Shown: positions 5,441 through 60,112 of the stretch, in pieces
How positions within the stretch are numbered: the first letter of the stretch is position 1
Layout of the letters: each line of letters begins with the position of its first letter
Origin: a phage
Direction: 5' to 3' (one strand)
Sequence record: PZ338878.1
Length of the DNA stretch: 64,000 nucleotides
The notes under the pieces: model-generated
What the model saw: the letters and a program-made list of their open reading frames with translations, nothing else
What the model was told of the DNA's origin: nothing
Database searches by the model: none
Made by a program: the position numbers and the translations under genes

Positions 5441-5448
5441 TTTACCTC

Positions 5449-6972: not shown

Positions 6973-6975
6973 ATA

Positions 6976-7296: not shown

Positions 7297-7305
7297 ACAC
7301 TCTCC

Positions 7306-8643: not shown

Positions 8644-8644
8644 C

Positions 8645-38294: not shown

Positions 38295-41170
38295 TGTCAA
38301 GAATTAAGCACAGAATTGACAATGTTTTTCAACTGATCGATGGACATATTCAGTTCTTAGATCGTAATACAGGTTTAACTGTAGATCCTACAGTGCAACA
38401 CTATGTATTAAACCCACAAAACGTTCTAGCTAATAACAGACACTTTATAAACTGGACTGCTCAAGAAGGGCAACCAAACGGGGATGCTACAACAGAAGGT
38501 CAATCCGTGCTTGTTCTTGGTTGCGCTTATGCATACCTAGCTTCCGGCGATACAAAGTATTTAGACTCTGCTAAAAAATATTGGCAAGCCTATATAGATT
38601 ACTTCTTTGGTGGTCAACCTATCCCAGATCCGCCAGCAAAATATCGCCCTAACTGGATTATTAACGGTAAAGAACCACGTCTTGCACACTATCCTCTTAC
38701 AGATGATGGCTACCCTACACACGGAGGTTTTAAGGGTAGCTTAATGACGTGGACTAACGGTAGAACAGTTATTCCTCATGGTGCTCCACATTGGGGAGAA
38801 TACCTTGATAAAGCATGGTTTGCTTTTAATGGTAATCTAGGATGGAACTCTGTAAACGCTACAGTATATGCTGTTAATGCAGATGGAACAACAGATTGGT
38901 CTAAGAATGGAGATCAGTGGGACGTTGATTGGATCATTGATCGTCTAGGACGTAAAGTTGATTGGGATGGAAATATCTTAGAAGAAGGTTTTCCAACATC
39001 TCAATACGGAACAGTTCAACTAAAAAATACTTCTGTCAACGGTACATATAAATTTAACTACGCGACTTGTAACCCTGTTGAACACGGCGGTTATTTAATG
39101 GAGCGTAACACTATGTGGCATAACAGACCAGTTAACGTTCCGGTAGAAATGGGCTTTCAGGATAATGCGTCAGATGCCGAAACTTGGTGGTGTGATGCTA
39201 ATTACCTGATGTACCAAATTACAGGAGAAAGAAAATATTGGCTATGCTGGCAGTCTTCACTGTTAGTGTGTCAAGATTACTCAAACATTGATATGTTTGA
39301 TAAATTCTTCCGTAAATCTACATATGCAACTATTCCGTTTACAGATGGCATCTCTTACGATTATTCGTATCCATCTACAGCAATACCTAAATATTCAAGA
39401 GATACTTTAGGTTATATTGTTATTAGACAAGATGTTGCTGCTCAAACAACATTAGAACAGCAAGCCATTTGGTTTAAAGTTGATCAGAACTCTAAGTTAC
39501 GAGTTCAGTTCCAAGGTGTAGATGACGTAGGACATGGTATCCTTTTCCGTCCAGAATTGGAGCTAAGTAAGACCAAAGATGAAAATAACACAGTAACTTA
39601 CCGTTGTGGTTTACCACTAGGTACAGCTAATATGACAAGCATGGATATTCCATTATCCAGCTTTATGAGAAGTACCCCTCCGAATGGTGGAACATATATT
39701 ATCGCAGACCCGCGAATTATTGTTGACTGGGGTGACAATACTGTGGTACAATATAAGTATGTAACAGGTATTGCTGGAACTAATAATGACCAGATTGTTA
39801 CTGCATCAATGGATACGGATGGTGGTATCACTGTTGGTTTTTGGTTAACTCCTACATCAAAAGCTAATGTTAAGTCTATCACATATAGAACATATGAAGA
39901 TGACTTTAACATGACTATCACGGATGCTCAAGGTTGGAGATGGTGGGCTATGCTGCCTAAAACGCAAGGGGCATGGAGTACGAAGACTTTATCAGCCTCT
40001 GCTTTTAAGTTAAGTGCTTATCAGCCTAATCATCCAGAAACAGATCCTAAACCTTCAGCAATAAATCTTACTGCGGTAGATCAGGTAAATTTAGTTCTGG
40101 ATACGGCTCCTGTCAATGGTTTAACAGGAACAATAGATTTCTATTGTATTAACGATGTACCTGAAAGATATTCATCATCTTCTGGTGATGATTATACCAT
40201 GTACTTCCGTATCACTGTACAGGCTTCAAGTTCTCATACTGCTAAGTTAGGTGATTGTACTATTATTGACTATAAGTTAAATAGTCTTAATTACACACCA
40301 GGAATAATTCCATTCTCTAATATCAGTGACCCAAACACTGCATTATACGATGGATGGCGTGGTATTCCATACCCAGGATACCAGTATCCTTCCTTATACT
40401 GTTTCGCAGGTAGGGATATTGATTGGACACGTTTAAACAACAGTATTGATTTCTTGTATGATGCTCAAATGTGGTTTTATAACACGTTTGATCCTGTGAT
40501 GCCTGGGCCTATGGCACAAGCATATGTGTGGGATCGTTGGGATGCAAGAAAATACGGTGAACCGAATACGTTCACAATGAAACACTGGAATGAAAAAGCG
40601 TGGGATGGTTATGAAGCTCGTGCATTCTACTGTGCTTGTCATGCTGTATACGAACTTGTACAAAGAGGAGAAACACCTCCTGAAAAACTGGTAACAGTTT
40701 GTAAAAATTGGATCAACTACCTTAAATGGTTCCAAGACAATAATGATGGAAGAACACCAACTATCTTTAACCCAGATGGTACAGTTCTTGCACCTATAGA
40801 TGACTTTACTAGTCATATGTCTGCACTGTTTATGGCTGGTTGTTCAATCATGGGTTTGGCAGGTTATGATTCACAAATTCCAAACATTGGTATTGTAGCA
40901 GACAGATGTTTTGATCTGATTCAGCAAAACTATATTGTGCTTTCCCCTAACCATCCGATGAATGGTTGTTGGAGTGTTGCACCGCGTCCAGATTCAGATA
41001 ACGGAATGTTCTTTGGTTTCCATGCTGGAGAACTACTACGTGGTTTTGGTTTATATGCTTTATATCGTAAACTAAATCCTCAAAACGCCTTACCAATTTT
41101 GGACAATAGTAACATACCGACACTAACTGTTCTAACTATGAATGATATTAGTGTTGATGTAACCAAATAA
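38294..41170 (+). CDS. large tail-associated protein with glycoside-hydrolase-like helical domains (candidate depolymerase)
   Basis: 958 aa; Trp/Tyr/Asp-rich segments reminiscent of (alpha/alpha)-barrel carbohydrate enzymes; no motif confirmed. Confidence 0.35.
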   Translation: MSRIKHRIDNVFQLIDGHIQFLDRNTGLTVDPTVQHYVLNPQNVLANNRHFINWTAQEGQPNGDATTEGQSVLVLGCAYAYLASGDTKYLDSAKKYWQAYIDYFFGGQPIPDPPAKYRPNWIINGKEPRLAHYPLTDDGYPTHGGFKGSLMTWTNGRTVIPHGAPHWGEYLDKAWFAFNGNLGWNSVNATVYAVNADGTTDWSKNGDQWDVDWIIDRLGRKVDWDGNILEEGFPTSQYGTVQLKNTSVNGTYKFNYATCNPVEHGGYLMERNTMWHNRPVNVPVEMGFQDNASDAETWWCDANYLMYQITGERKYWLCWQSSLLVCQDYSNIDMFDKFFRKSTYATIPFTDGISYDYSYPSTAIPKYSRDTLGYIVIRQDVAAQTTLEQQAIWFKVDQNSKLRVQFQGVDDVGHGILFRPELELSKTKDENNTVTYRCGLPLGTANMTSMDIPLSSFMRSTPPNGGTYIIADPRIIVDWGDNTVVQYKYVTGIAGTNNDQIVTASMDTDGGITVGFWLTPTSKANVKSITYRTYEDDFNMTITDAQGWRWWAMLPKTQGAWSTKTLSASAFKLSAYQPNHPETDPKPSAINLTAVDQVNLVLDTAPVNGLTGTIDFYCINDVPERYSSSSGDDYTMYFRITVQASSSHTAKLGDCTIIDYKLNSLNYTPGIIPFSNISDPNTALYDGWRGIPYPGYQYPSLYCFAGRDIDWTRLNNSIDFLYDAQMWFYNTFDPVMPGPMAQAYVWDRWDARKYGEPNTFTMKHWNEKAWDGYEARAFYCACHAVYELVQRGETPPEKLVTVCKNWINYLKWFQDNNDGRTPTIFNPDGTVLAPIDDFTSHMSALFMAGCSIMGLAGYDSQIPNIGIVADRCFDLIQQNYIVLSPNHPMNGCWSVAPRPDSDNGMFFGFHAGELLRGFGLYALYRKLNPQNALPILDNSNIPTLTVLTMNDISVDVTK

Positions 41171-41178
41171 GGAAAATA

Positions 41179-43338
41179 ATGAAACAGGCTATTTTTACTG
41201 TAACTCGAAATACGAGAGTAAATGCCAGTTCATTCAGCTATAAGACCGTCGATGGAACGGCGGTCGCTGGTAGAGATTATGTAGCTAAACAGGGAACAGT
41301 AACGTTCCCTTCTGATGCAGATTCTGCTACTGTGGTGGTTGATGTATATGAACGTCCGGCAAACTCTTTAGATCTTTATTTTACTCTTGAGATTACTAGC
41401 ATAAGTCAAAATAACATGATGATCAATGAAGAAATTCGTTGTGTTATTACGACTAATCAATCGAATACAACCCCGCTAACTTGGCCTGTTGTGAAGTCTA
41501 GAATGTTTGATCCTAAGTTTTGGACAATAGATTCTCAAGCAACAGAAAGTTGTTCTATTATCTCTAATGGTGATTCTTTCACAGCAAGAATGGTTAATAG
41601 GACAGTGGCTGGTCTTGCTGGGATTATTTGGTCAACTTACGATAAATATGATCACAAAGGATTAGGCTACCAAGAACATTCTGACTTAAGTAAAGAGAAA
41701 CTTTGGTTTAAAATGGAACTTAGTCAAGGTGTTCCTGGATTAAAAGAAGAAAAATTAATACCATCCTTAACAGTGACACTGAAGGATGAAACAGTTCATT
41801 ATGTATCTCTAAACTTTTATGCAGAAGAAGTTTCAGAAGATGGTAAGACAGCAACAATCAAATTAGATTTCTCAAACTTAAAATCGGGGCCAGAAAATGA
41901 TATTGTTGTTGACACTACACAAATAGATAATATGTTCTTCTCCTTGATCTCAACGAGGTATCAAGAAATTGAAGATATTATTCCTGTAGACAATGAGGAT
42001 CTTTCCTTTAAGTTTACCATACTGGAGCCTGATACTGGTTACAGTATGATGAATATGGGTAATTTAAATGTTCCAGCACACACCATAAGAATGTGTACAT
42101 CTTATGATGATATGTATAACCTGACCCCAGAGCGAATTATTTCTAACACCTACAGATTAGGTTATAGGGATATGATTAACCACTATAATGGTATGTCACA
42201 CTATTATCAGTTTAGTTGGGATGCTGGTTCTAATAAATGGGCTTTGAATAGAACAGAATATTTAAACCCAGCAACAGAAGCATGGTTTGATAATTTCCAC
42301 GCTAATGCAAAAGCTATGGGCTACACAGTAATGAATTCCTTAAGTTTTGAACTTATGAGTACAGTGTGTCCTGTAGAATGGGTACAACATACTTGGAATG
42401 ATGATCTTGCTGCTACAGGTTATGAGCCACCAAGTTATGTTTTATCTCCTTCAATTGATGAAGGGATGAATTATTTACAAGGTGTAATAAATAAAATAGC
42501 TTCTATATCCGCTGCTAATGATCTTCCGGTTATTATTCAGGTTGGTGAACCGTGGTGGTGGTATAACACAGCTACCAATCTACCGTGTATTTATGATTAT
42601 ACAACCAAAGTTGCATTTAATAATGAAACTGGATTGTATGCACAAGATGTTGGTACAGTTAAAAATTATAAAACTGGTACACCATATAATGAATATTATG
42701 CATTCCTATCTAAAACATTAGGACTGCGTGTTGCTAAATTTGCAACAGATACCAGATTAGCATATCCTGGAGCTAAAGTTACATTGTTACCATTTGTGCC
42801 ATCCATTTTGGGTAATGGTATGATGGAGTTTGTTAACTTCCCTAAAGATTATTATATCCCAGAGAACTTTGACTTTTATTGTTCAGAATGTTATGACTGG
42901 TTGTTGGAAGGTAAGATGGAAAAATCTTTCGACGCTATCACAATACCTAATGAGCAACTAGGTTTTAGTTACGATAAGATACATTATCTTGCAGGGTTTG
43001 TTCCAGACGCAACTCTAGCACCATTATATGGCTTTGATCCTGAATCAGACTACAGAACATATTTGTGGAAAATGATTATAGGTAATATTGTATTGAATGA
43101 TCAGAAGTTTGTTGGTTTATATCAATACATATGGGCTTACCCACAAATAATGCATGATTCAATAACTGTTCTTAATTCAAAATCCCAAGTGTTTTATATG
43201 GGTAATGTGCCTTTGAATTGCTACTTGCAAGATATCACTCTTAAACAGGTAAATGTTGAGATTGCCACTATAAGTGGAATTACATTAGCCACTAAATCTG
43301 GAGAAGATTTAGTAACAACACAAAAATTTTATATATAG
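41179..43338 (+). CDS. tail-associated protein with N-terminal Calx-beta-like domain
   Basis: KTVDGTAVAGRDYVAKQGTVTFPSDADSATVVVDV resembles the Calx-beta motif. Confidence 0.4.
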   Translation: MKQAIFTVTRNTRVNASSFSYKTVDGTAVAGRDYVAKQGTVTFPSDADSATVVVDVYERPANSLDLYFTLEITSISQNNMMINEEIRCVITTNQSNTTPLTWPVVKSRMFDPKFWTIDSQATESCSIISNGDSFTARMVNRTVAGLAGIIWSTYDKYDHKGLGYQEHSDLSKEKLWFKMELSQGVPGLKEEKLIPSLTVTLKDETVHYVSLNFYAEEVSEDGKTATIKLDFSNLKSGPENDIVVDTTQIDNMFFSLISTRYQEIEDIIPVDNEDLSFKFTILEPDTGYSMMNMGNLNVPAHTIRMCTSYDDMYNLTPERIISNTYRLGYRDMINHYNGMSHYYQFSWDAGSNKWALNRTEYLNPATEAWFDNFHANAKAMGYTVMNSLSFELMSTVCPVEWVQHTWNDDLAATGYEPPSYVLSPSIDEGMNYLQGVINKIASISAANDLPVIIQVGEPWWWYNTATNLPCIYDYTTKVAFNNETGLYAQDVGTVKNYKTGTPYNEYYAFLSKTLGLRVAKFATDTRLAYPGAKVTLLPFVPSILGNGMMEFVNFPKDYYIPENFDFYCSECYDWLLEGKMEKSFDAITIPNEQLGFSYDKIHYLAGFVPDATLAPLYGFDPESDYRTYLWKMIIGNIVLNDQKFVGLYQYIWAYPQIMHDSITVLNSKSQVFYMGNVPLNCYLQDITLKQVNVEIATISGITLATKSGEDLVTTQKFYI

Positions 43339-43346
43339 GAGTAAAA

Positions 43347-45662
43347 ATGTCAACTACAATTACTAATTTACCCGAAACATCAAAAGTTAATGGTTCTGAT
43401 TACCTGGTTTTAGACCAACCTGATAAGACTGTTAAAAGCACAGTTTCCAACTTTCTTACTAACACTGGGGTGGTTGCTGCGGGGAGTTATACACCTAGAA
43501 CATTAGCCGATAGATTTGCTGATGTATTTAACGTTAAAGACTTTGGTGCAATTGGTGATGGAGTTACCGATGATACAGCAGCACTGCAAGCAGCAATAGG
43601 CGCAGCAGCAACTTCTGGTGTAAAACTGATATGGCCTGCTGGTACTTACTTGTTCACCAAACTTAGTAGCACTATTAGATATGGAGCATACAATTGGGAG
43701 GCAATAGGTCACGTAGAGCTTATCAGCACAGCTAACCCTGTCGGTGAAGCAGGTCAGGCTATACTACTAAGCGGAGCTTATAGTTCAGATCTGCTAAGTT
43801 TCGAGGAATATGATGTTAAGAAAGGTGATAGATCTATTACCTTAAATAAGGTACTTGATGCATCTACAAAAGACCTCATCGTGATTCGTAATAAGCACGT
43901 TGTACGAGGTGATCATCGTGGTAGCTGGCAAGAAGGTCAAATATCAGGTATTACAAAAGTAGAAGGAAATACCATTATGTTAGACCAGAATGCGCAGTAT
44001 TACTATAGGTCTGGTGGTAACTTCCATTTCACAGTTACTGGTGCGGAAAGTGGACGCAAGTTTTCTGCTGCTGAGTTTTCTGTTACCAACCCGCCACGTG
44101 ATGCATTATATCGTATCACAGGAACAACCGGTGTTAATGCTGGTATAACAAAGGTTGTAACAGCATATGATGATGCAACTAAGACCTTCACCATAGGTTC
44201 TGATGCAAACACAGGGTTCCCTAATACACCAGCAGTTGGTGATCAGTTCTTACTAGATAGGAAAGCAGAGGCTTGGTTGGTATACCCAGCAACTGTACAC
44301 ATTTCTGGTGACTTCGTACTTAAGACACAGCGTGGCCTTATTACAGATGCAGAAAAAGGTTCTCTCGCATGGGATGGACTTGTTCTAAGATATTGCCGTG
44401 ACAGCAAGATACAACTTGGTGGTGTACACAATTTCCCTAACTCAGGTGTTACAGTGAATATGTCATTGCGTGTTCATGTCAATGTAAGTAATATTACTGG
44501 GGCTAACAGGGTGTGGGATGGGTCAGGAGGCTCTGGTAATGCGGTATCCATTAACACCAGTAGCTTCTGCATAGTAGAAGGTCTGTCTTCGACAGGTTGC
44601 CGAAGGGGTGTAGATGTCACCGGTAGTAACTGGTCTAGTTTCTATAACATGATTAAAGACATCTCTGTGAGAGGGGGTGGCGTAGGTTTCACAGGTCAAT
44701 CTATCTTCCCACAGATAGGGTCTGCTGCTGATTGCTATGGAGTGGGCAGTCATGGCGGAGCTGTAGGTACAATGTATGATGGATGTGATTTAGTGGATTG
44801 CACTATACCATTTACCATACGTGGTTTTGATGAGAGTATTCAGAATAGTACAATTCGTGGGTATTGCTCTCAGCCAATTCGCCTGTATTACGCAAGCGGG
44901 TGCTACATTAACAATGTTACATACTCTGACGGTTTCACAGAAACTAAAGGGAGCACTAGCGAGTGGCAGACGATTACAACGACAGAGTACCGTAAGTTAC
45001 GACCAATTAGTTTCTTGACTATCACAGATACTTGGTCTTTTGAAACACCAACTGTAGTGGAGAATTGTGTTGCCAAATCTATTACTCGCTCTTTTGCTTA
45101 TGTAACAACAAAGGAAGAACAGCTAGATAACTTGGTACTTAAGGGTTGTATAGCTTATGTGGATAACTATGGCGCATCTACCACTGATGCAGCTTTCTTG
45201 CAAGTGATTGGTACTCCAGAGTTCCTAGGTAATATAGGTATGTTTGGTGGATGTGATCTTATTTTAGTTGGTTCAAACAACACAGTAAGCTCAAGTCAAA
45301 TGGTGAGAATTGCCTCCGCTTGTACTGGTATCATCCGCAGAAGTGAGACATTGTGGGAAGTAAGGATTAATTCAGGAGAGCAGAAGCGTGTGCCTCTTTC
45401 GAAAACATCTTCTATGCTTCTTGTAGATGTAGCTAACATGGGCAACCCAGGTAACTATAGTGCTTGCAATGTAATCATGGGTAAGGACGATGCAACCGAT
45501 TACTCGCCACTAAGCTCCTTCAACAAGAATAAGGTAGAGTTGCGAGATACTGGAGGGGCAACTGCCGGCACTCTTGCCTTATGGTTTTCTGGTAACAAGC
45601 TAGGAATAACTAATGGTTTCGGAGGAAAAGCTAATATACTTATAGATATTAGATCGTTCTAA
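43347..45662 (+). CDS. tailspike with pectate-lyase-like right-handed beta-helix domain (candidate depolymerase)
   Basis: N-terminal particle-binding segment then DFGAIGDGVTDDTAALQAAI (pectate lyase superfamily signature). Confidence 0.55.
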   Translation: MSTTITNLPETSKVNGSDYLVLDQPDKTVKSTVSNFLTNTGVVAAGSYTPRTLADRFADVFNVKDFGAIGDGVTDDTAALQAAIGAAATSGVKLIWPAGTYLFTKLSSTIRYGAYNWEAIGHVELISTANPVGEAGQAILLSGAYSSDLLSFEEYDVKKGDRSITLNKVLDASTKDLIVIRNKHVVRGDHRGSWQEGQISGITKVEGNTIMLDQNAQYYYRSGGNFHFTVTGAESGRKFSAAEFSVTNPPRDALYRITGTTGVNAGITKVVTAYDDATKTFTIGSDANTGFPNTPAVGDQFLLDRKAEAWLVYPATVHISGDFVLKTQRGLITDAEKGSLAWDGLVLRYCRDSKIQLGGVHNFPNSGVTVNMSLRVHVNVSNITGANRVWDGSGGSGNAVSINTSSFCIVEGLSSTGCRRGVDVTGSNWSSFYNMIKDISVRGGGVGFTGQSIFPQIGSAADCYGVGSHGGAVGTMYDGCDLVDCTIPFTIRGFDESIQNSTIRGYCSQPIRLYYASGCYINNVTYSDGFTETKGSTSEWQTITTTEYRKLRPISFLTITDTWSFETPTVVENCVAKSITRSFAYVTTKEEQLDNLVLKGCIAYVDNYGASTTDAAFLQVIGTPEFLGNIGMFGGCDLILVGSNNTVSSSQMVRIASACTGIIRRSETLWEVRINSGEQKRVPLSKTSSMLLVDVANMGNPGNYSACNVIMGKDDATDYSPLSSFNKNKVELRDTGGATAGTLALWFSGNKLGITNGFGGKANILIDIRSF

Positions 45663-45753
45663 TGCCACTAATCAAATCAGTTAAGCAAAGTGCTGTACGC
45701 CAGAACACACAAGAGGTTATTCAGTCAGGACGTGACACTAAACAGGTTATAAG

Positions 45754-45773
45754 ACCCCTCTTCGGAGGGGTTT
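45754..45773 (+). terminator. hairpin terminator after tailspike gene
   Basis: ACCCCTC-TTCG-GAGGGGT then TT. Confidence 0.45.
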
Positions 45774-45796
45774 ACTAGAAAAACAAAGAGGTACTT

Positions 45797-45946
45797 ATGA
45801 ACGAATTATTCTACCAAGGCGGTATTGCCCCAGGTACTACTGCCATTAGTCTTAGTGCTGCTGTACTTGTGCATTCAGCGGGTTCTGTAGACCTTGGGGA
45901 ATTAGCTGTATCTTGTGATTTAAAAAGTAATGAGAACGCACCATGA
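45797..45946 (+). CDS. small hydrophobic protein (49 aa, below ORF-track cutoff)
   Basis: AAAGAGG RBS; stop overlaps next start (ATGA). Confidence 0.3.
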   Translation: MNELFYQGGIAPGTTAISLSAAVLVHSAGSVDLGELAVSCDLKSNENAP

Positions 45947-46188
45947 GAAAATTTTTAATAGGTATGTTTTGTACATATCCTGATAATAAAGTCAGTTCTA
46001 CTAAAGTTTGGAATGCTATTGGTATGATTGTTATGTCCAGTATGTTTATTTATTTGGGAATTGATAAAGAAATTCCTGAATGGATGGGCTGGGCTTTTGT
46101 TTTTATGATCACACCATCCAGACTAATGAAGAATTTAATAGATTTACGTTGGGGCAGATCACCTGCCCCTGATAAGGAGGATAACTAA
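45943..46188 (+). CDS. small membrane protein with charged C-terminus (holin-like topology)
   Basis: Two or three hydrophobic segments then RLMKNLIDLRWGRSPAPDKEDN. Confidence 0.35.
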   Translation: MRKFLIGMFCTYPDNKVSSTKVWNAIGMIVMSSMFIYLGIDKEIPEWMGWAFVFMITPSRLMKNLIDLRWGRSPAPDKEDN

Positions 46189-47675
46189 TGGCAGATTATG
46201 GTTTAACAGATGCTGGTTTTGTAATTCCAACGTTTGATGATATTTTAAATAATTATATGACAGCATTGAAAAACACTTTCGGTGCAGATACAGCTACATC
46301 TGAAGATACTGTCTTTGGTCAACTGTTTCGTATTATTGCATATACAGATTACACACTTTGGGAAGGTATGCAAGGTGTTTACAATACCCAAACCTTAGAT
46401 GGTGCAGAAGGTATTTACCTTGATGAAATTTTCTCTAAAAGGGGTTTTTATCGTAAAGCTGCTTCTGCTGGTAGTGGTTATGCTTATGTTAAATCTAACA
46501 ATAAGGCAGCTTGGACTTATGAACTAAGCACAGATGTTTATTTTAATGCCGATAACGATTTGACATATTATGTCAGTGCACCAACAATGTTGAATGCTAA
46601 GATTGGAGCATATACCATTTCTAAAGCAAACGCAACAGCTTCTGGTGAAACTTCTATTACTTTCTACATTCAAAGTGCTATTGATGGTGGTCTTAACAGT
46701 AAAACATTAAGTCCTAGCAATACAAACTTTATTGTAGATCTCACGAATTTCATTAAAGCTAACGTATCAACAACAGATCGTGCTTTAGTATGGAATGATG
46801 CTAGTAATGTTTACATGGGTTATAATCCAGAAGATAATGTTAATCCAATAGGTCTAGTAACACCAGTGAAATTTTATGCATCTATTGCCATTGGTACAAA
46901 ATGGAGTGAAATTCCAGTTACGTGTTCAGACGTTGGTTATAATCCAGTAGGTACAGAAAGTATTACAGGTATTTCTTCAACGTTTACAGGCTTTTTAGAT
47001 ACAGGTAACTTCTATCCGTTCTCTCCAGGTACAGATGTTGAAACAGATGCAGAATTCCGTTCTCGTTTCAATGATAATATGGATGAAGCTAATGCTGCTA
47101 CTCGTGCTGCTATTGTTAAAGCTCTATTACTGACAGACGGTGTGACAAAGGTTAAGATTTATGATAACCCTACACTACACGATCAGGAACATGCTCCAGC
47201 TATGACATTTCAGACTATTGTGTATGGTGGTACAGCAGAAGAAGTTGCACAGGTTATTTATAATACTAAGCCTATTAACACCTTAACTTATGGTACGACA
47301 GCAATTACTATCATAACAGAAGATGGTGGTCAAGAAGTAATTCGTTTTTCTCCTGGTGATAATGCGGAATACTCACTTAAACTGGTATATCAAACTGGCA
47401 ATGGTAGTGTGTTAAGTACAACAGAAAGGGAAAATATTGTTTCTGCTCTTGCAAACTTACAGGCTTATTTTGAATTAGGCTCAACAGTAACTAACGATCA
47501 GATAAAAGGTGTAATTTATTCTGCACTTGCGTTCGGACGCTTGACTTCTCTCCGTGTTTATGTTAAACTTAATACTGAGGATGACAGTAAATATAATGAG
47601 GGAGATATCACTCCAGCGTACAATGTTGTACCATCCTTTGACCTTGATAATATTTCCTACGAGTACGGAGTCTAA
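46188..47675 (+). CDS. baseplate J-like / tail-fibre-proximal structural protein (putative)
   Basis: 495 aa ORF; N-terminus FDDILNNYMTALKNTFG loosely resembles baseplate J-family proteins. Confidence 0.35.
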   Translation: MADYGLTDAGFVIPTFDDILNNYMTALKNTFGADTATSEDTVFGQLFRIIAYTDYTLWEGMQGVYNTQTLDGAEGIYLDEIFSKRGFYRKAASAGSGYAYVKSNNKAAWTYELSTDVYFNADNDLTYYVSAPTMLNAKIGAYTISKANATASGETSITFYIQSAIDGGLNSKTLSPSNTNFIVDLTNFIKANVSTTDRALVWNDASNVYMGYNPEDNVNPIGLVTPVKFYASIAIGTKWSEIPVTCSDVGYNPVGTESITGISSTFTGFLDTGNFYPFSPGTDVETDAEFRSRFNDNMDEANAATRAAIVKALLLTDGVTKVKIYDNPTLHDQEHAPAMTFQTIVYGGTAEEVAQVIYNTKPINTLTYGTTAITIITEDGGQEVIRFSPGDNAEYSLKLVYQTGNGSVLSTTERENIVSALANLQAYFELGSTVTNDQIKGVIYSALAFGRLTSLRVYVKLNTEDDSKYNEGDITPAYNVVPSFDLDNISYEYGV

Positions 47676-47677
47676 AA

Positions 47678-48307
47678 ATGGCAGTGAGTGTTGACCATGT
47701 GACAACGTGGGATAGTATCAATGAAGATGTTAAAGACCTACTGATTGAAGATTTTAAATCTTCTCCGAACATTGTCAAACTACTCTATATCATTTCTAGC
47801 GAAAAACAAAAGATAGATCAGGCAATGATCTATCTTGCCAAACACCGCTTAATCTCTACTGCAACTGGTAAGTATTTAGATCTTATTGGTGAAGAGATGG
47901 GGATGGAGAGAAATGGTGCTACGGATGAAGAGTATCGTACAATATTAAAAATCAGGGCTTATCGTGTTGCGTCTTCTGGTACGCGAGATGATATCATTGA
48001 TATGTTCGCTCGTTTTACAGGAACAGAAAAAGAAACGATCAATACATACGTTGGATTAAATAAAACATTCGACGTATTCTTTTATAATTTGTGTCTACAA
48101 TCCGATCAGGCAGTAGCACAGTTACTTAACGTTTTCCCGATCCTAAGTAGTTATCGCTTAGGTGCGAAAGCGGGTGCAGCCTTTGGTTTCACTTCCTATT
48201 ATGCCACAAAGCCACCTCATGGTATAGGTGGTTTAGGTTCTCTTTACACAGAGGCTGAAGGAGATGATACAGGGCGAATGACTATGCTGATAGCTCAAAT
48301 AGAATAA
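47678..48307 (+). CDS. tail structural protein (putative)
   Basis: ORF immediately downstream. Confidence 0.35.
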   Translation: MAVSVDHVTTWDSINEDVKDLLIEDFKSSPNIVKLLYIISSEKQKIDQAMIYLAKHRLISTATGKYLDLIGEEMGMERNGATDEEYRTILKIRAYRVASSGTRDDIIDMFARFTGTEKETINTYVGLNKTFDVFFYNLCLQSDQAVAQLLNVFPILSSYRLGAKAGAAFGFTSYYATKPPHGIGGLGSLYTEAEGDDTGRMTMLIAQIE

Positions 48308-48320
48308 GGAGTTACTCTTA

Positions 48321-49301
48321 ATGGCAAAGCCACAATACTACCCTGACTGGGCGACACAAACAGTAACCCTCCCAGGAACGGGAAACACAAACAAGATTAG
48401 ACCAAAAGAAACCATCCGTAATGTTGGTATGGATTTTGGTCAGATTATGACTTGTGAAGAAATGAACTGGATCTTGAACAATATTGGGTCTTGGATTCGC
48501 TATATGCAAGATGAATTCTTCCCAACATTGCCTACTACATATCTTCCTATAGTCGGTACTAAAATTACAATGGCAGGTGATGCTACAGGTGAAGTTACAT
48601 GGAATGGTAATGCTGCTGTAACATTATCTATTCAAGTCGTAGATAATAGTCATAATCACTTATCAGCTAACATTACAGACGCAACATCAAACCAAGTTGT
48701 AGGAAATGTCCTTGTTAAGCGTGATAATGGTGGTGCTATCTATGCAGGTGATATTTACACTTGTGGTACAGGTGCTACAGATCCTGCAACATTATTTTTT
48801 AGAAACTATAACGGACAAACAGTAGGCAATATGTCTTCTGAACCAGGTGCAGGTGGTCAACTCTATATTTATAGAATAAATCCATCTACTGGAGGAACAT
48901 CTTGTGGAGTCCGTTTGTATGATGCAGGTTATGTTTTAATAGACAACCCTCGTTCTAATTCTGGTCAAGATACTGGTAATGGTAATGCTCTTGTAAGATT
49001 AGATTATCTTAACTCAAGACTAAACTCATTGCAAAGTACACTGCAAAATAATATTAACAACGTTAATAGCAACTTGCAAGGCCAAATTAATAACATTAAC
49101 AATAGAGTTTCTTCTGTTGTGTCTTCTATCCGTCTAGGTACACGTATTAAAGCTGGTGTATCTGAATCTCCTTTCTATGCTGGTCACGTGATCACAGGCT
49201 GGGGTTTTGGTGATAAGAAAGAACTTCGTGGTGCTTGGTATTGGTCTGCTCCGCTACAATATTACATTAATGGTAGGTGGATAACAGTAACCAACGTTTA
49301 G
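48321..49301 (+). CDS. tail fibre protein
   Basis: Asn/Gln/Ser-rich coiled-coil shaft (LNSRLNSLQSTLQNNINNVNSNLQGQINNINNRVSS) and Gly-rich beta segments. Confidence 0.45.
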   Translation: MAKPQYYPDWATQTVTLPGTGNTNKIRPKETIRNVGMDFGQIMTCEEMNWILNNIGSWIRYMQDEFFPTLPTTYLPIVGTKITMAGDATGEVTWNGNAAVTLSIQVVDNSHNHLSANITDATSNQVVGNVLVKRDNGGAIYAGDIYTCGTGATDPATLFFRNYNGQTVGNMSSEPGAGGQLYIYRINPSTGGTSCGVRLYDAGYVLIDNPRSNSGQDTGNGNALVRLDYLNSRLNSLQSTLQNNINNVNSNLQGQINNINNRVSSVVSSIRLGTRIKAGVSESPFYAGHVITGWGFGDKKELRGAWYWSAPLQYYINGRWITVTNV

Positions 49302-49313
49302 TAAGGAGAACAC

Positions 49314-49865
49314 ATGAAAAAAGATGTTATTTACACTGGCTTTGAACTATATCAACCAGAATTGACAGAAGAAAATGTCATCTATCTTTCAATAGGTGCT
49401 GGTTTTCTTAAAGATAAAGATGGTAATGATTGGTACGAAATTCAGAAATATTTATCCAAAAATTACCCTGATGCCTATTTCTTAACTCTAGATCACAATA
49501 ATGTAGTTGTTGCAGCTACGAAAGATGTTTCTACATATTTTCCCGCTGGTCTTACTGTTCTTGTAACATACAATGTTCCAGATAAAATAGAAGAAGAAAG
49601 CAACCTAGGATCGTGGAGATATGACAATGGTAAGTTTATTTCTCATAATGGGTTTGCAATAGAAGATGCCAACCTTAAAATGGAAAAAGAATTAACTTGG
49701 GCCACAAATCAAATATCTGCAATTCAAGATTTAGAGGAATTACAAGGTTTATCTGAAGAACAAAAAGATTGGTTAGGAAAAGTTAAACTATATCGTGCAA
49801 CACTGATTCAAATTAACGTTGAAGATGCACCTAATATAACTTGGCCTACAAGACCTAAGAAATAG
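49314..49865 (+). CDS. tail fibre assembly/chaperone protein (putative)
   Basis: 183 aa ORF directly after the fibre gene. Confidence 0.35.
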   Translation: MKKDVIYTGFELYQPELTEENVIYLSIGAGFLKDKDGNDWYEIQKYLSKNYPDAYFLTLDHNNVVVAATKDVSTYFPAGLTVLVTYNVPDKIEEESNLGSWRYDNGKFISHNGFAIEDANLKMEKELTWATNQISAIQDLEELQGLSEEQKDWLGKVKLYRATLIQINVEDAPNITWPTRPKK

Positions 49866-49874
49866 GGGTAATGT

Positions 49875-50216
49875 ATGGAGCTAACAGAAGTATGGGATAT
49901 CGCTAAAGAGGCGATTATCCCTCTTATTGGTGTAATCTGGGTGGTCTTCAAACAGAAGATAGATGATATAGCAAGTGATTTGGATAAAATGGAAGACAAA
50001 TACCGTGAACTAGAAAAGAAGTTGGTGTTTGTTGAATCCACTTATGCTACCAAAGCAGAACTTGCTCAAATGCTTAACCAGATCAACTCTACATTAATGG
50101 CAAATAATACTGCCTTAGAACAGAAGATTGAAAAAATAATGGATTTAAAAAATGCTCCTGTTCAATTAATGCTAGAGGAGATTACGAAGCGCACACAAAG
50201 TAAGGACAAAAATTAA
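49875..50216 (+). CDS. hypothetical protein with N-terminal hydrophobic segment and coiled coil
   Basis: IIPLIGVIWVVF then heptad-like charged sequence. Confidence 0.35.
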   Translation: MELTEVWDIAKEAIIPLIGVIWVVFKQKIDDIASDLDKMEDKYRELEKKLVFVESTYATKAELAQMLNQINSTLMANNTALEQKIEKIMDLKNAPVQLMLEEITKRTQSKDKN

Positions 50217-52630
50217 TGGCGAATTTTCCAACATATCCTGCTACGACACTAGAACAAGGTGTTGATCTGGTTATATTCTCGTCTAACCAGATGCATGATG
50301 TTATTAACGGGGATGCTACAGCAACTGTAGAAACCGAAACAGGTTTAATACCTACACTGCGTAAAGCACTTGTTGATAACTTCTTCTTTAAGAGTCCTGT
50401 TGCTTGGTCAGCAGGATCAACTGAAACTGTATTTAACCAGTTACGTTATTTTGAAAACGGTATCTTGAGTGGGTACTACTATGCTCCATCTGCCACTACT
50501 GCGAACCCTGTACCTATGCAGGGTACACCTGTAGGAGACAGTAACTGGACTCTGTATGCTCTTAAAACTGAACAGTTAGCTTCAGATGTGTATCCTTGGT
50601 ATTTTAAAGGTGCTACAGGGTATGAGACAGAAATCAGTCCTCCTTATATCTTTGATAATGCTATTGTCACCATTAACGGTGTAATTCAGATTCAGGGTGA
50701 AGCATTTACTATCAAAGATAGTAAAATTATTCTGGCAGAACCATTAGGTTTAGATCCGTCTACTGGTCTACCTAACAAATTGTTTGCTTTTATTGGTAAA
50801 ACAACAGCCTCTACTTCTTACGTAGAGAAAAACCTTTTGTCATCTACCACTGGTGCAGCAATGGTTGGTCTTCCATCTGGAGGCAATCTGTTACAAGCTC
50901 AATACTTTGTAACGCCTGAGCAGTTTGGTGCAATTGGTGATGGAGTTACCGATGATACTCAAGCAATTCTAAAAACCATTACTTTCGCTAACACGAATAA
51001 CATTCAAGTACGTGCAGATAAGAATTATAGATTCACAAGCTCAATTGCTATGTCTGGTATTCGTTGGTATGGTGGTACATTCACTGGTAACGGTGGAACA
51101 ATGATTTCTACTGTGTCCTGTTGGATTGAAAACGTTCGCTTTGAAAAATGTTATGTTAAGATGTTAGGTGGTGATTGCCGATTCTATCGTAATATCTTCT
51201 CCAACGCAACATCTACAGCAGCATTTTTAATGCAAGCAATGACAAGTGAAGGTACGTTGGACTTCAGTTACAACGAAATGTATGGTTGTAAATATGCGAT
51301 CCTGCAACAAGGTACTGGAGAAGTAATGACCTATGGGCGTTACTCTAACAACTACATTCACGATATCAAAGGTGATGCTATTGAACTTAACGTAGTTCAA
51401 AAACACTACACTGAAGGTTTGATCATCGAGAATAACCACATTGCTAACGTAGATGCTTCTGGACAAGGGGCAAACTGGGGTATTGGTATTGGTGTAGCAG
51501 GTAGTGGCCCATATGGTGTTGATGCTCCTGATTCACAATATGTACGTAACTTCAGTATCGTTGGAAATAGGGTTTACAATTGCCGTCAATGTTTACACGT
51601 TGAAATGGGTAAAAACTTCACTATACGTGACAACGAAGTTTATCCTAACACAGCAGTTTCAACAGGTACAGGTTTAACTACTTGTGGTGTTGCATTATAC
51701 GGATGCCAAGATTTTGAAGTTGATGGTTTAACTGGTTATCTGCTTAATGATCCGTCTGTTTCAACACGCATGGTCTTTATTGACTGGGGTGTTAACAGTG
51801 GAAGATATGCGGGGCCACCAATTAACTTTACAATTAAGAATTTGGATATTCCAGAATCTTCAATTGAAATTGCAACGGCTGGATCAGATGCCTGGGAAAA
51901 CTCTACAATTGTTAGTAACATCAATTGTAATGTTTTTAAATGGCGTGGATTACCATCTAGCTCTACCTTTAATAATATTCGTTGCCGTAGTATTGACTTT
52001 ATTGGTCAACACGGAAGCGGAGAAGGAAGTGGTGGCGGTTTCTATACTCGCAGCCAATTCACTTATATGAAGTGGGTAGGATGTACAGCACTTAGCGGAG
52101 ATGAAACAACAGTTTCTTTTGCTAAAATCTACACGGATCGTTGCGATCAGGTTGGAAATAACTTTGGTGTTCCAACTGCTGTTGATGGTACAGGTCATCG
52201 TGGGCCAGTCTTAACCACTATTTCTGAACAATATTTTACAGATTATGATGAATTCCCAGGTGGGCGTGACTTCCCTACTGGAACAGTTATTCATTGTGCA
52301 AGCGGTAAAAAACACGTTGTTACAGTAGGTGGTGCTTTCTTTAGTAATAATGAGAAAATAAAAGCAACTGTTACAGGTCAAACCTATCTACAGTCTAATG
52401 CTTTAAACTGGGCTAGTAATGGCTACGCTAAAGCGGCAGGTACTAAGATTGTTATTCCAGGTGCAGGAGCAAATGGTGGCGATCTTGTGACAACTATAGC
52501 ACGTGCTACGTATGTGACAAATAGTTTGTACACAATAGATATTGCAGATCCAATTGTAACACCTACAGCAGAGAATACACAAATTAAAGCTCTGAACCCT
52601 GTTACTTTTGTTACTGTCAATAATGCTTAA
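50216..52630 (+). CDS. second tailspike with pectate-lyase-like beta-helix domain (candidate depolymerase)
   Basis: QFGAIGDGVTDDTQAIL signature; shares a 35-nt identical DNA stretch with gene 43347. Confidence 0.55.
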   Translation: MANFPTYPATTLEQGVDLVIFSSNQMHDVINGDATATVETETGLIPTLRKALVDNFFFKSPVAWSAGSTETVFNQLRYFENGILSGYYYAPSATTANPVPMQGTPVGDSNWTLYALKTEQLASDVYPWYFKGATGYETEISPPYIFDNAIVTINGVIQIQGEAFTIKDSKIILAEPLGLDPSTGLPNKLFAFIGKTTASTSYVEKNLLSSTTGAAMVGLPSGGNLLQAQYFVTPEQFGAIGDGVTDDTQAILKTITFANTNNIQVRADKNYRFTSSIAMSGIRWYGGTFTGNGGTMISTVSCWIENVRFEKCYVKMLGGDCRFYRNIFSNATSTAAFLMQAMTSEGTLDFSYNEMYGCKYAILQQGTGEVMTYGRYSNNYIHDIKGDAIELNVVQKHYTEGLIIENNHIANVDASGQGANWGIGIGVAGSGPYGVDAPDSQYVRNFSIVGNRVYNCRQCLHVEMGKNFTIRDNEVYPNTAVSTGTGLTTCGVALYGCQDFEVDGLTGYLLNDPSVSTRMVFIDWGVNSGRYAGPPINFTIKNLDIPESSIEIATAGSDAWENSTIVSNINCNVFKWRGLPSSSTFNNIRCRSIDFIGQHGSGEGSGGGFYTRSQFTYMKWVGCTALSGDETTVSFAKIYTDRCDQVGNNFGVPTAVDGTGHRGPVLTTISEQYFTDYDEFPGGRDFPTGTVIHCASGKKHVVTVGGAFFSNNEKIKATVTGQTYLQSNALNWASNGYAKAAGTKIVIPGAGANGGDLVTTIARATYVTNSLYTIDIADPIVTPTAENTQIKALNPVTFVTVNNA

Positions 52631-52632
52631 TT

Positions 52633-52653
52633 AAAAGGGGCGAAAGCCCCTTT
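52633..52653 (+). terminator. rho-independent terminator
   Basis: AAAAGGGGC-GAAA-GCCCCTTT. Confidence 0.5.
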
Positions 52654-52670
52654 ATAAAAGGAGTAGTAAA

Positions 52671-54632: not shown

Positions 54633-54635
54633 TCA

Positions 54636-54660
54636 AAGCCCCTTCGGGGGCTTATTATTT
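54636..54660 (+). terminator. hairpin terminator
   Basis: AAGCCCC-TTCG-GGGGCTT then ATTATTT. Confidence 0.45.
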
Positions 54661-54671
54661 AAGGAGATTAA

Positions 54672-57491: not shown

Positions 57492-57492
57492 T

Positions 57493-57523
57493 AAAAAAGG
57501 AGCCATTAGGCTCCTTTTCTTTT
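57493..57523. terminator. bidirectional hairpin terminator between convergent genes
   Basis: AAAAGGAGCC-ATTA-GGCTCCTTTT with A/T runs on both sides. Confidence 0.55.
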
Positions 57524-57526
57524 ATC

Positions 57527-57958
57527 TTAATCAGTGAAAATTACGCTCACATCTTCTTTAGAGAAGAGTTTATGATCTTCACCTTTTGTCTCAAGAGTTT
57601 CATACAGGTTAAGAAGTTCTGAAACATCTTTCTCTACCAGTTTCTTCAATGTTGCAATTTTCTGTTTGCGATTCTTAATACGTTCAGCTACAACCTTACG
57701 TTGGTATCCAGCAGTACGATAACCTGAGAAAGTTACACCAGTAAGACTTGCAGTTACAGGATCGTAGTGACGTTCAATCTGAAATTTATTAAAAGGTACA
57801 GCGTCATCACGAATAATCTTACCGCCATTACTTACTTGACGAAGACCAGTAACTTGTTCCAGTCGTGCCATAGAAATCTTTGGAGACAGACCAGAGTCCA
57901 AATTCATACCGTTGTTAATCAGTGCTTTCAGGGTGATTTTGCTGTTCAGTGTACTCAT
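57527..57958 (-). CDS. hypothetical protein (143 aa)
   Basis: ORF overlapped at its 5' end by the methyltransferase gene. Confidence 0.45.
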   Translation of the reverse strand: MSTLNSKITLKALINNGMNLDSGLSPKISMARLEQVTGLRQVSNGGKIIRDDAVPFNKFQIERHYDPVTASLTGVTFSGYRTAGYQRKVVAERIKNRKQKIATLKKLVEKDVSELLNLYETLETKGEDHKLFSKEDVSVIFTD

Positions 57959-58646: not shown

Positions 58647-58657
58647 TATATCTCCTT

Positions 58658-58684
58658 CAAAGAAAAGGAGCCGTTAGGCTCCTT
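58658..58684 (-). terminator. rho-independent terminator, near-identical copy of the 57493 hairpin
   Basis: Minus-strand AAGGAGCC-TAAC-GGCTCCTT then TTTCTTTG. Confidence 0.5.
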
Positions 58685-58706
58685 ATATTCACACAATATT
58701 TAATTA

Positions 58707-59654: not shown

Positions 59655-59670
59655 AAATTCTCCTCTATAA

Positions 59671-60069: not shown

Positions 60070-60079
60070 TCAAGTCCTC

Positions 60080-60109: not shown

Positions 60110-60112
60110 CAC

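What the first reader, a model, noticed from the sequence alone, without database searches (positions are those of the whole stretch)
43542..43576. 35-nt identical DNA segment shared by two tailspike genes
The sequence TTTGGTGCAATTGGTGATGGAGTTACCGATGATAC occurs at 43542-43576 (gene 43347) and again at 50924-50958 (gene 50216), encoding FGAIGDGVTDDT at the start of each beta-helix domain while the flanking DNA diverges. Perfect nucleotide identity over 35 nt within otherwise different genes suggests a recombination joint for swapping catalytic domains.
Basis: seen in the sequence. Interest (0 to 1): 0.5.

Follow-up and report, generated by a model that had tools for sequence, protein, structure and literature searches.

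The report
Recombination joint shared by two tailspike genes
A 35-base stretch shared exactly by two otherwise unrelated tailspike genes of a phi92-like E. coli phage marks the point where enzyme domains have been swapped at least three times with a different phage family, and the two copies are kept alike by tiny copy-and-paste events within the genome.

Summary
The 35-mer occurs exactly twice, at 43542-43576 and 50924-50958, and is the longest exact repeat in the window.

The window is a Justusliebigvirus (phi92-like myovirus). Gene 50216 is the conserved colanidase (phi92 gp150). Gene 43347 sits in the variable gp143 tailspike slot. The 35-mer encodes FGAIGDGVTDDT, the common N-terminal cap of right-handed beta-helix enzymes.

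Codon bias does not explain the identity. Of 95 IMG/VR sites encoding this peptide, only two colanidase genes match exactly; all others differ at 3 or more synonymous positions.

In the slot gene, three unrelated catalytic modules (X, Y, Z) follow the same anchor, linker and 35-mer. Each has a counterpart in Vectrevirus (SP6/K1-5-like podoviruses), and that DNA homology begins in the last 8-15 bases of the 35-mer. The linker has yet another origin, and its homology ends in the first bases of the 35-mer.

Rare variants co-vary between the slot and colanidase copies within single genomes (J-01, a GCA_019973095.1 contig). This points to short ectopic gene conversion in both directions.

The parts
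43347..43475 (+). Anchor module of the variable tailspike gene (nt 1-129, 43 aa). This is the phi92 gp143 slot, directly after the NCTSP-type tail gene 41179-43338.
   Evidence: It is 95-99% nt-identical in more than 100 Stephanstirmvirinae records, and in most of them homology stops at nt 129. The synteny is the same in every fetched Justusliebigvirus locus.
43476..43541 (+). Linker B (nt 130-195; AAGSYTPRTLADRFADVFNVKD).
   Evidence: It is shared only with the alia, J-01, P0001, P0143, P0130 and P0012 alleles. It is 63/66 nt identical to a tailspike gene on a P2-like myovirus contig (P0038, L111), whose own motif has 6 mismatches to the 35-mer. The P0014 allele carries a different linker A in front of the same module X.
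43533..43549 (+). 5' crossover box GTTAAAGAC|TTTGGTGC (17 nt).
   Evidence: This is the stretch common to the P0038-like linker source and the P0014/alia module-X alleles. Homology to P0038 ends here, and homology between the linker-A and linker-B alleles begins here.
43542..43576 (+). 35-mer copy 1, encoding FGAIGDGVTDDT (the first strand/cap of the beta-helix domain).
   Evidence: Pfam PF12708 matches aa 61-106 at 46.6 bits against a cut-off of 27. PDB sequence hits to beta-helix enzymes centre on this segment; the longest spans aa 25-139.
43569..43583 (+). 3' crossover box GATGATAC|AGCAGCA (15 nt).
   Evidence: Window vs Vectrevirus module Y: nt 196-222 are 19/27 identical, nt 223-237 are 15/15, and nt 238 to the end are 89% identical. 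Modules X and Z break at the same place.
43577..45662 (+). Catalytic/C-terminal module Y of the tailspike (a beta-helix depolymerase of unknown substrate).
   Evidence: It has no match in the INPHARED phages collection by megablast or tblastn. It is 96% aa-identical to metagenomic Justusliebigvirus alleles (P0001 cluster), 91% to 742-aa Vectrevirus tailspikes (P0002/P0003) and 60% to an E. coli P22-like prophage tailspike (P0004).
45663..45757 (+). 3' flank that travels with the module. It includes a remnant of the end of an S74-chaperone/endosialidase-type gene (45663-45684, TGCCACTAATCAAATCAGTTAA).
   Evidence: It is 82% identical to the 3' flank of the Vectrevirus Y gene. It is also shared with the module-Z allele P0012, where the same bases are the last codons of the gene.
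45755..45770 (+). G+C-rich hairpin CCCCTC-TTCG-GAGGGG, the point where all slot alleles become homologous again (3' boundary of the cassette).
   Evidence: An alignment of five alleles converges here. The simple terminator scan did not call it because the T-run is weak. A conserved terminator-like motif downstream of such genes is described in PMC10408124.
50216..52630 (+). Colanidase tailspike gene (orthologue of phi92 gp150).
   Evidence: It is 97.7-99.5% nt-identical over its full length in 56 phage records. PDB 6E0V 'Bacteriophage Phi92 gp150' matches aa 180-804 with E=0.
50924..50958 (+). 35-mer copy 2, at the start of the colanidase beta-helix. It is the likely donor, and sometimes the recipient, of the short conversion tracts.
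   Evidence: The colanidase consensus is this exact 35-mer. Variants are GGG in 3 of 51 records, and GCT in none of 47 records but present in the P0014 contig.

Best explanation
The 35-mer encodes the N-terminal cap motif of the right-handed beta-helix fold (FGAxGDGxxDDT). This motif is present at the start of the catalytic domain of many tailspikes. Because the peptide is so conserved, unrelated tailspike genes already share 70-90% DNA identity across these ~35-60 bases. This patch is the only DNA similarity seen between the otherwise unrelated genes compared here. Two processes appear to use it.

1. Module exchange.
- In the gp143 slot of Justusliebigvirus, incoming beta-helix modules were joined by crossovers in the micro-homology at either edge of the motif: GTTAAAGAC-TTTGGTGC on the 5' side and GATGATAC-AGCAGCA on the 3' side.
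- A second crossover lay in a conserved ~95-nt 3' flank and hairpin.
- Shown: three modules (X, Y, Z) have moved this way between Vectrevirus podoviruses and Justusliebigvirus myoviruses. The window carries module Y.

2. Ectopic gene conversion.
- The motif copy in the slot gene and the copy in the resident colanidase gene, 7.4 kb away, occasionally overwrite one another over tracts of about 16-44 nt, in either direction.
- This is why the slot alleles carry colanidase-type codons rather than those of their Vectrevirus relatives, and why the two copies in this window are 35/35 identical.

Shown: the mosaic junctions, the allele comparisons and the within-genome co-variation. Inferred: that the crossovers are homology-guided rather than merely selected afterwards; that conversion happens within one replicating genome or between co-infecting genomes; and which enzymes carry it out (unknown).
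For: Identity and chance: (P about 3.7e-4; 93 of 95 other encodings of the same peptide differ at 3 or more sites).

The motif as a general fold feature: PF12708 hit; PDB hits restricted to this segment; 75-89% nt similarity to tailspikes of Vibrio, Bacillus, Klebsiella, Acinetobacter and Salmonella phages.

Module swaps at the motif:
- Homology to alia and J-01 ends at nt 230-237.
- The same 77-aa N-terminus precedes modules X, Y and Z.
- Each module has a Vectrevirus version (547, 742 and 841 aa) whose motif differs at 7-9 of 35 nt.
- Identity rises from 0.67-0.74 (nt 196-222) to 0.93-1.00 (nt 223-237), then 0.89-0.98 to the stop codon and 0.69-0.82 in the 3' flank.

5' junction: linker B is 63/66 identical to P0038, but P0038's motif has 6 mismatches. 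Linker-A and linker-B alleles are identical from GTTAAAGAC onward.

Gene conversion:
- The alia and J-01 slot genes differ at 10 of 1725 nt, and 7 of those lie in nt 210-244. The 6 in nt 210-233 all match J-01's own colanidase. That includes GGG, which is a minority colanidase allele (3 of 51 records). The identity runs 44/44.
- The colanidase on the P0014 contig carries GCT (a Thr-to-Ala change) like its own slot gene. None of 47 colanidases in the phage collection has it.
- The P0130 and alia alleles are 94-99% identical in the flanks but only 18/27 in the motif. There P0130 is Vectrevirus-like and alia is colanidase-like.
Against: - The micro-homology boxes are short (8-17 nt). Purifying selection for foldable chimeras would also concentrate surviving junctions near a domain boundary, so homology guidance is not proven.
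- Only 3 of 9 genomes holding both loci have identical copies; the others differ at 1-9 positions. Conversion is therefore sporadic.
- A 5-genome permutation of colanidase assignments, counted by hand, is not significant on its own (12 of 120 arrangements).
- The window allele differs from its closest relative P0001 at a single motif base (ACC vs ACT). That could be a point mutation rather than a conversion event in this lineage.
- Some bases fit no known donor: GCT in alia, and ACG in the P0014-contig colanidase.
- Much of the comparative material is metagenome-assembled.
- No recombinase was identified in the window; only an RdgC-like protein, ligases and a family-A polymerase were found.
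Confidence: 0.75

Rival explanations
1. Selection-only junction. Recombination in this region is illegitimate and random, and only chimeras joined at the structural start of the beta-helix fold survive. Under this view the nucleotide identity with the colanidase is incidental and plays no mechanistic role.
For: The motif is the first element of the fold, so domain-boundary selection certainly acts. Module Y is also found behind other N-termini: a P22 head-binding domain, TSP1/Gp66-type N-termini and others. In those, protein homology starts near the motif, and in some (P0008, P0010) the motif itself is degenerate.
Against: All three Vectrevirus-to-Justusliebigvirus junctions fall inside the domain, after DDT, within the same 8-15 identical bases and not in the linker. 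The 5' junction falls in another 17-nt identical stretch. This view does not explain the within-genome co-variation of synonymous variants.
Confidence: 0.15
2. Chance convergence. Two independent genes encode the same conserved peptide with the phage's preferred codons.
For: The peptide is very common, and most of the codons used are preferred ones (GGT 0.65, GAT 0.80, TTT 0.60).
Against: P is about 3.7e-4 even with this genome's codon bias, and two rare codons are shared (GGA 0.20, ACC 0.10). 93 of 95 other encodings differ at 3 or more sites, including those on low-GC contigs. Vectrevirus homologues of the very same modules differ at 7-9 sites. Rare variants co-vary within genomes.
Confidence: 0.04
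3. The 35-mer is a nucleotide-level functional element (a promoter, a protein-binding site or an RNA structure) kept identical by selection in both genes.
For: None specific. The only support is that the identity is at the DNA level.
Against: In colanidase genes the 35-mer is no better conserved than its flanks (about 98% overall) and tolerates GGG, ACT, GCT and GCG variants. One slot allele (P0130) lacks it altogether yet occurs on 10 contigs. No RNA or promoter test was run.
Confidence: 0.03
4. Assembly or sequencing artefact, in which repeat copies were collapsed or a bubble popped so that both copies received the same variant.
For: Several comparison genomes are short-read or metagenome assemblies.
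Against: The repeat is only 35-44 nt with unique flanks, which is shorter than reads and usual final k-mers. The SNPs lie 14-20 nt from the repeat edge, so no bubble can form. The pattern recurs in independent isolates and assemblies (window, alia, J-01, several ENA/Logan contigs).
Confidence: 0.02

Closest known systems
Recombination between conserved motifs in T-even tail-fibre/adhesin genes (Tetart, Desplats and Krisch 1998; gp38 glycine-rich motifs, Trojet et al. 2011, PMC3157838)
   Same: Short conserved coding motifs embedded in hypervariable receptor-binding genes are the places where natural exchanges occur, and those exchanges give chimeric host-range determinants.
   Different: Here the motif is the N-cap of an enzymatic beta-helix tailspike, not a fibrous or glycine-rich adhesin motif. 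The exchange is between a podovirus genus and a myovirus genus. In addition, the motif is homogenised between two non-homologous genes of the same genome.
Conserved DNA motifs flanking receptor-binding domains of lytic coliphage tailspikes (Pas et al. 2023, PMC10408124)
   Same: That paper proposes conserved nucleotide islands upstream and downstream of the exchangeable domain as recombination hotspots, with Justusliebigvirus among the genera, plus a 20-nt terminator-like motif downstream. The 3' boundary found here (hairpin at 45755-45770) fits their motif three.
   Different: [quoted passage not shown] The joint here lies inside the first strand of the catalytic domain. Vectrevirus is not among their six lytic genera with these motifs. 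They report no correlation with observed events and no intragenomic conversion. That the two upstream motifs are different is my inference; their alignment figures are not held as text.
Tail-gene cassettes of SP6/K1-5/K1E phages (Vectrevirus) and the phi92 gp143 endosialidase
   Same: phi92 gp143 is homologous (51-54%) to the K1E, K1-5 and K1F endosialidases (PMC13450770). This shows earlier traffic between these groups at this same slot. The window's 3' flank still carries the tail end of such a gene.
   Different: The window's module is not an endosialidase. The nucleotide-level junctions and the three parallel transfers (X, Y, Z) are shown here from sequence data, not taken from that literature.
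Interlocus (ectopic) gene conversion / concerted evolution of paralogous segments
   Same: There are clustered substitutions that match a second locus in the same genome, unaffected flanks, transfer in both directions, and rare variants shared by the two copies.
   Different: The tracts are extremely short (about 16-44 nt). The two genes are not paralogues in any other part. The homology that seeds the exchange comes from convergent conservation of a fold motif.

Membership tests
Right-handed beta-helix / Pectate_lyase_3-type domain start (Pfam PF12708) | HMM match above the gathering score that covers the N-terminal motif | tested here: met
   Gene 43347: PF12708 at 46.6 bits (cut-off 27), aa 61-106. 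PDB hits to GH55 glucanases, AlgE epimerases and the Sf6 tailspike centre on the motif segment, with spans from aa 61-91 to aa 25-139. Gene 50216: no PF12708 hit at E<=0.01 in my scan, but it is 98% identical to phi92 gp150, which has a solved structure.
phi92 gp150 colanidase orthologue (gene 50216) | Full-length high identity to phi92 gp150 in the same genomic position | tested here: met
   98.0% nt identity over 2415 nt to FR775895.2 PHI92_gene_150. PDB 6E0V matches with E=0. The enzymatic activity itself was not tested here; it is taken from PMC13450770.
phi92 gp143-slot tailspike (gene 43347) | Conserved 43-aa anchor and position directly after the NCTSP-type tail gene | tested here: met
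phi92 gp143-slot tailspike (gene 43347) | Endosialidase catalytic domain, as in phi92 gp143 | tested here: not met
   There are no endosialidase catalytic-domain Pfam hits; the only hit is a weak End_N_terminal match over the motif. The module is homologous to other beta-helix tailspikes. It is an allele of the slot, not an endosialidase.
Conserved-motif-mediated modular exchange of phage receptor-binding genes | A nucleotide island shared by otherwise diverged genes | tested here: met
Conserved-motif-mediated modular exchange of phage receptor-binding genes | Natural mosaic junctions map to the island, and do so repeatedly | tested here: met
   Three modules break at the 3' box and there is one linker swap at the 5' box.
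Conserved-motif-mediated modular exchange of phage receptor-binding genes | Recombinants arise at the island in crosses, and this depends on the shared bases | not testable with these tools
   This needs co-infection experiments with recoded motifs.
Interlocus gene conversion | Substitutions clustered in a short tract that match the other locus, with unchanged flanks | tested here: met
   J-01 vs alia: 7 of 10 differences lie in 35 nt, and 6 of them match J-01's colanidase. P0130 vs alia: 18/27 in the motif against 94-99% in the flanks.
Interlocus gene conversion | Copies within a genome are more alike than expected from population frequencies of the variants | tested here: inconclusive
   The J-01 (GGG, 3 of 51 records) and P0014-contig (GCT, 0 of 47 records) cases are striking. 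However, only 9 genomes hold both loci, 6 of them are not identical, and a simple permutation on 5 genomes is not significant.
Diversity-generating retroelement (template/variable repeat pair in a tail gene) | Repeat of about 100 nt or more with adenine-specific differences, plus a nearby reverse transcriptase | tested here: not met
   The repeat is 35 nt and exact. The allele differences are T/G, A/G and C/T rather than adenine-specific. No reverse-transcriptase domain appeared among the 17 ORFs scanned (7 tail and 10 flanking). The whole window was not scanned for one.

The most novel reading that the evidence does not exclude
phi92-like phages may actively maintain, by concerted evolution, one identical 'socket' sequence at the start of the beta-helix in several of their tailspike genes. 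Any beta-helix depolymerase module met during co-infection could then be plugged into any slot. Under this reading the process is promoted by dedicated machinery, for example an annealase acting on short single-stranded fragments, or breaks made by the homing endonucleases that sit next to the Vectrevirus tailspike cassettes (a NUMOD4 gene follows the tailspike in L098). It would be an evolved host-range diversification device rather than a by-product of recombination.
Probability: 0.12. Interest if true: 0.75.

Novelty: new variant of a known kind. Interest (0 to 1): 0.5.

Why it matters
Tailspike enzymes decide which capsule or O-antigen types a phage can attack. How new specificities are acquired is central to phage ecology and to engineering therapeutic phages.

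This locus gives base-pair resolution for a natural splice point. It lies right after the DDT of the beta-helix cap motif, with a second joint in a ~95-nt 3' flank. The same point has been used at least three times to move enzymes between a podovirus genus and a myovirus genus. That is a directly usable design rule for chimeric tailspikes.

The locus also shows that two non-homologous genes in one phage genome can exchange tracts of only a few dozen bases. This is a form of concerted evolution that has hardly been documented in phages. It can alter even a conserved enzyme, as in the Thr-to-Ala change in one colanidase.

Tried and rejected
- A protein search with only the 77-aa N-terminus returned only short fragments and was useless.
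- Exact scans for the linker-plus-motif sequence found nothing in IMG/VR or JGI metagenomes. The extra alleles came instead from cluster members of the protein database.
- tblastn of module Y, and megablast of modules Y and Z, against the INPHARED phages found no catalytic-domain match. Donors could therefore not be found among deposited phage genomes.
- Literature searches for gene conversion in tailspikes, or for Vectrevirus-Justusliebigvirus exchange, gave no paper describing this site.
- A terminator scan did not call the hairpin at 45755-45770.
- I looked for a recombinase in the window. I found only an RdgC-like protein, DNA and RNA ligases, an RNase H-fold protein and a family-A polymerase.
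- Considered and rejected:
  - chance codon convergence;
  - a duplicated ancestral domain, because no similarity exists outside the 31 aa around the motif;
  - a DGR template/variable repeat pair;
  - an invertible or shufflon-type switch, because the repeats are direct and 7.4 kb apart across essential baseplate genes;
  - an assembly artefact.
- The E. coli Chi sequence (GCTGGTGG) is not present in the 35-mer, by inspection.
Full report
**Observation**

The 35-mer TTTGGTGCAATTGGTGATGGAGTTACCGATGATAC occurs exactly twice on the + strand, at 43542-43576 and 50924-50958. No additional copy appears even with three mismatches allowed, and none appears in 100 shuffles. It is the longest exact direct repeat in the window; the next is 22 nt.

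Both copies are in frame and encode FGAIGDGVTDDT, in ORF 43347-45662 (771 aa) and ORF 50216-52630 (804 aa). DNA identity stops abruptly on both sides. The proteins share only a 31-residue local match.

**Context**

The region 41000-58000 is 97-99% identical to Justusliebigvirus genomes (phi92-like myoviruses, Stephanstirmvirinae) over about 86% of its length.
- Gene 50216 is the colanidase, phi92 gp150. It is full-length and 97.7-99.5% identical in 56 phage records, and it matches PDB 6E0V.
- Gene 43347 lies in the slot that holds the endosialidase gp143 in phi92 (fiber I; PMC13450770).
- Only its first 129 nt are conserved across more than 100 records.
- Nt 1-230/237 are shared only with phages alia and vB_Eco_J-01.
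- The remaining 2.1 kb has no counterpart in the deposited-phage collection.

**What the peptide is**

The peptide is the start of the Pectate_lyase_3-type right-handed beta-helix (PF12708). The only PDB sequence matches of the 771-aa protein cover this segment. They are to glucanases, alginate epimerases, polygalacturonase and the Sf6 tailspike. Around the motif the DNA is 75-89% identical to tailspike genes of Vibrio, Bacillus, Klebsiella, Acinetobacter and Salmonella phages. It is therefore a fold motif under very strong protein-level constraint.

**Is codon constraint enough?**

No.
- With this phage's codon usage, two independent encodings of the same 11 codons coincide with P of about 3.7e-4, and two rare codons (GGA, ACC) are shared.
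- In IMG/VR, 95 sites encode exactly this peptide. Two are 35/35 identical, and both are colanidase orthologues. The other 93 differ at 3-10 synonymous positions, including those on low-GC contigs.
- No exact copy exists in representative prokaryotic genomes. The only exact copies in JGI metagenomes are colanidase genes.

**Module swapping at the motif**

Protein searches and cluster look-ups show that the same anchor (nt 1-129), linker B (nt 130-195) and motif precede three unrelated C-terminal modules in Justusliebigvirus genomes:
- X (alia/J-01 type, 574 aa);
- Y (window type, 771 aa);
- Z (endosialidase-like with an S74 chaperone, 868 aa).

Each module also exists in a shorter version (547, 742 and 841 aa) on contigs that are Vectrevirus, i.e. 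SP6/K1-5-like podoviruses. One such contig carries X and Y in tandem.

At the DNA level the Vectrevirus motifs differ from the 35-mer at 7-9 positions, although module Z encodes nearly the same peptide (FGAIGDGVVDDT). Identity between the Justusliebigvirus and Vectrevirus versions is as follows:

| Segment | Identity |
|---|---|
| Linker | about 0.5 |
| nt 196-222 | 0.67-0.74 |
| nt 223-237 (GATGATAC plus the next bases) | 0.93-1.00 |
| nt 238 to stop codon | 0.89 / 0.91 / 0.98 |
| First 95 nt of 3' flank | 0.69-0.82 |

All alleles become homologous again at a G+C-rich hairpin (45755-45770). The window's 3' flank still contains the last codons of a Z-type gene. Three independent transfers therefore share the same 5' junction, inside the last 8-15 nt of the 35-mer.

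**The 5' side**

Linker B is 63/66 identical to a tailspike gene on a P2-like myovirus contig (P0038), whose own motif has 6 mismatches to the 35-mer. An allele with a different linker A (P0014) is identical to alia from GTTAAAGAC|TTTGG onward. A second junction therefore lies in the 17 nt that straddle the start of the 35-mer. The 35-mer is bracketed by mosaic junctions on both sides.

**Why the slot motif looks like the colanidase**

None of the presumed sources carries these codons: neither the linker source nor the Vectrevirus modules. Only the colanidase of the same genomes does. Three comparisons indicate short ectopic conversion.

1. The alia and J-01 slot genes differ at 10 of 1725 nt, and 7 of those lie within nt 210-244. 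The 6 in nt 210-233 all match J-01's own colanidase. These include a GGG codon that only 3 of 51 colanidases carry, and the following TCAAGCAAT. In J-01 the two loci are identical over 44 nt.

2. On the GCA_019973095.1 contig the colanidase carries GTTGCTGATGATAC, a Thr-to-Ala change, like its own slot gene. None of 47 colanidases in the phage collection does. This is conversion in the opposite direction.

3. The P0130 allele, present on 10 contigs, is 94-99% identical to the alia allele in both flanks but only 18/27 in the motif. There it is Vectrevirus-like while alia is colanidase-like.

Across nine genomes that hold both loci, the slot copy differs from the genome's own colanidase copy at 0, 0, 0, 1, 2, 2, 3, 8 and 9 positions. 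Homogenisation is therefore sporadic.

In this window the copies are 35/35. The closest allele, P0001, is 34/35 (ACT vs ACC). The last step to perfect identity in this lineage may be either a conversion or a single point mutation.

**Mechanism**

I conclude that the beta-helix cap motif is the only DNA similarity seen between the unrelated tailspike genes compared here, and that recombination uses it in two ways.
- It is the 5' crossover site for cassette exchange. The second crossover lies in the conserved 3' flank.
- It is the substrate for very short interlocus conversion with the colanidase.

The mosaic structure and the co-variation are shown. Homology guidance, the cellular setting (one genome or co-infecting genomes) and the enzymes are inferred. 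No recombinase was found in the window; it holds an RdgC-like gene, ligases and a family-A polymerase, and only 64 kb of about 148 kb is visible.

**Rivals**

- Selection-only clustering of junctions remains possible for the swaps. It does not explain junctions inside the domain within identical bases, nor the synonymous co-variation.
- Chance convergence is disfavoured by the codon statistics and the IMG/VR survey.
- A nucleotide-level functional element is disfavoured because the 35-mer tolerates variants and one common slot allele lacks it.
- An assembly artefact is disfavoured because the repeat is shorter than reads and the pattern recurs in independent assemblies.

**Relation to known work**

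Exchange at conserved motifs is classical for T-even adhesins (Tetart et al. 1998; PMC3157838). Pas et al. 2023 proposed conserved DNA motifs around tailspike receptor-binding domains, including in Justusliebigvirus, as hotspots (PMC10408124). [quoted passage not shown] I found no paper describing this joint, the triple Vectrevirus-Justusliebigvirus exchange, or conversion between tailspike genes of one genome. I therefore rate it a new variant of a known kind, of moderate interest.

Noticed in passing
window 42813-42834 and 54866-54887: There is a second exact in-frame repeat, 22 nt long (TAATGGTATGATGGAGTTTGTT, encoding NGMMEFV). It sits in two other tail genes: the NCTSP/TIM-barrel gene 41179-43338 and the Big_2 fibre gene 54672-57491. 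The flanks are unrelated, and my own estimate of the chance expectation in 64 kb is about 1e-4. The copy in the NCTSP gene is also present in alia, J-01 and the P0001 contigs. The Big_2 copy is not present in the part of L102 that covers it. It may be another micro-conversion island.
   Followed up: partly
window 45797-45946: A 49-aa ORF (MNELFYQGGIAPGTT...) lies just after the slot gene's hairpin. It resembles the N-terminus of TSP1/Gp66-type tailspikes (compare P0005, MNEMFSQGG...) and is annotated 'tail fibers protein [Salmonella phage GG32]' in alia. It looks like the stump of a former tailspike gene.
   Followed up: no
L118:1501-3144 and 3227-4644: One Vectrevirus contig carries module X and module Y as its two tandem tailspike genes. 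This is the same pair of modules that alternate in the Justusliebigvirus slot.
   Followed up: partly
L104:15360-17774: The colanidase of this Justusliebigvirus contig has a Thr-to-Ala replacement inside the conserved cap motif (GVADDT), apparently imported from its slot gene. An adjacent ACG codon matches neither locus.
   Followed up: partly
phages collection records MG065639, MG065645, MG065656, MG065689 (hits H42-H45): Records named 'Campylobacter phage' with host Campylobacter jejuni are 98.6% identical to the E. coli Justusliebigvirus colanidase gene over its full length and are about 146 kb long. They are probably mislabelled or contaminant genomes.
   Followed up: no
L108 (phage Antha, PP925826.1 73900-84500): This Justusliebigvirus has no gene at all in the gp143 slot. 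The NCTSP-type gene is followed directly by the small membrane-protein gene.
   Followed up: no
window 921-940 and 63490-63509: A 20-nt exact repeat TAAAGGGGCTTTCGCCCCTT, which is hairpin- and terminator-like, occurs at both ends of the window near the ends of minus-strand gene blocks.
   Followed up: no
window 945-9196 (- strand) and 57915-63423 (- strand): The flanking early/replication genes include an RNase H-fold protein, an RdgC-like protein, an ATP-dependent DNA ligase, a T4-type RNA ligase, an N6/N4 DNA methylase and a family-A DNA polymerase.
   Followed up: no
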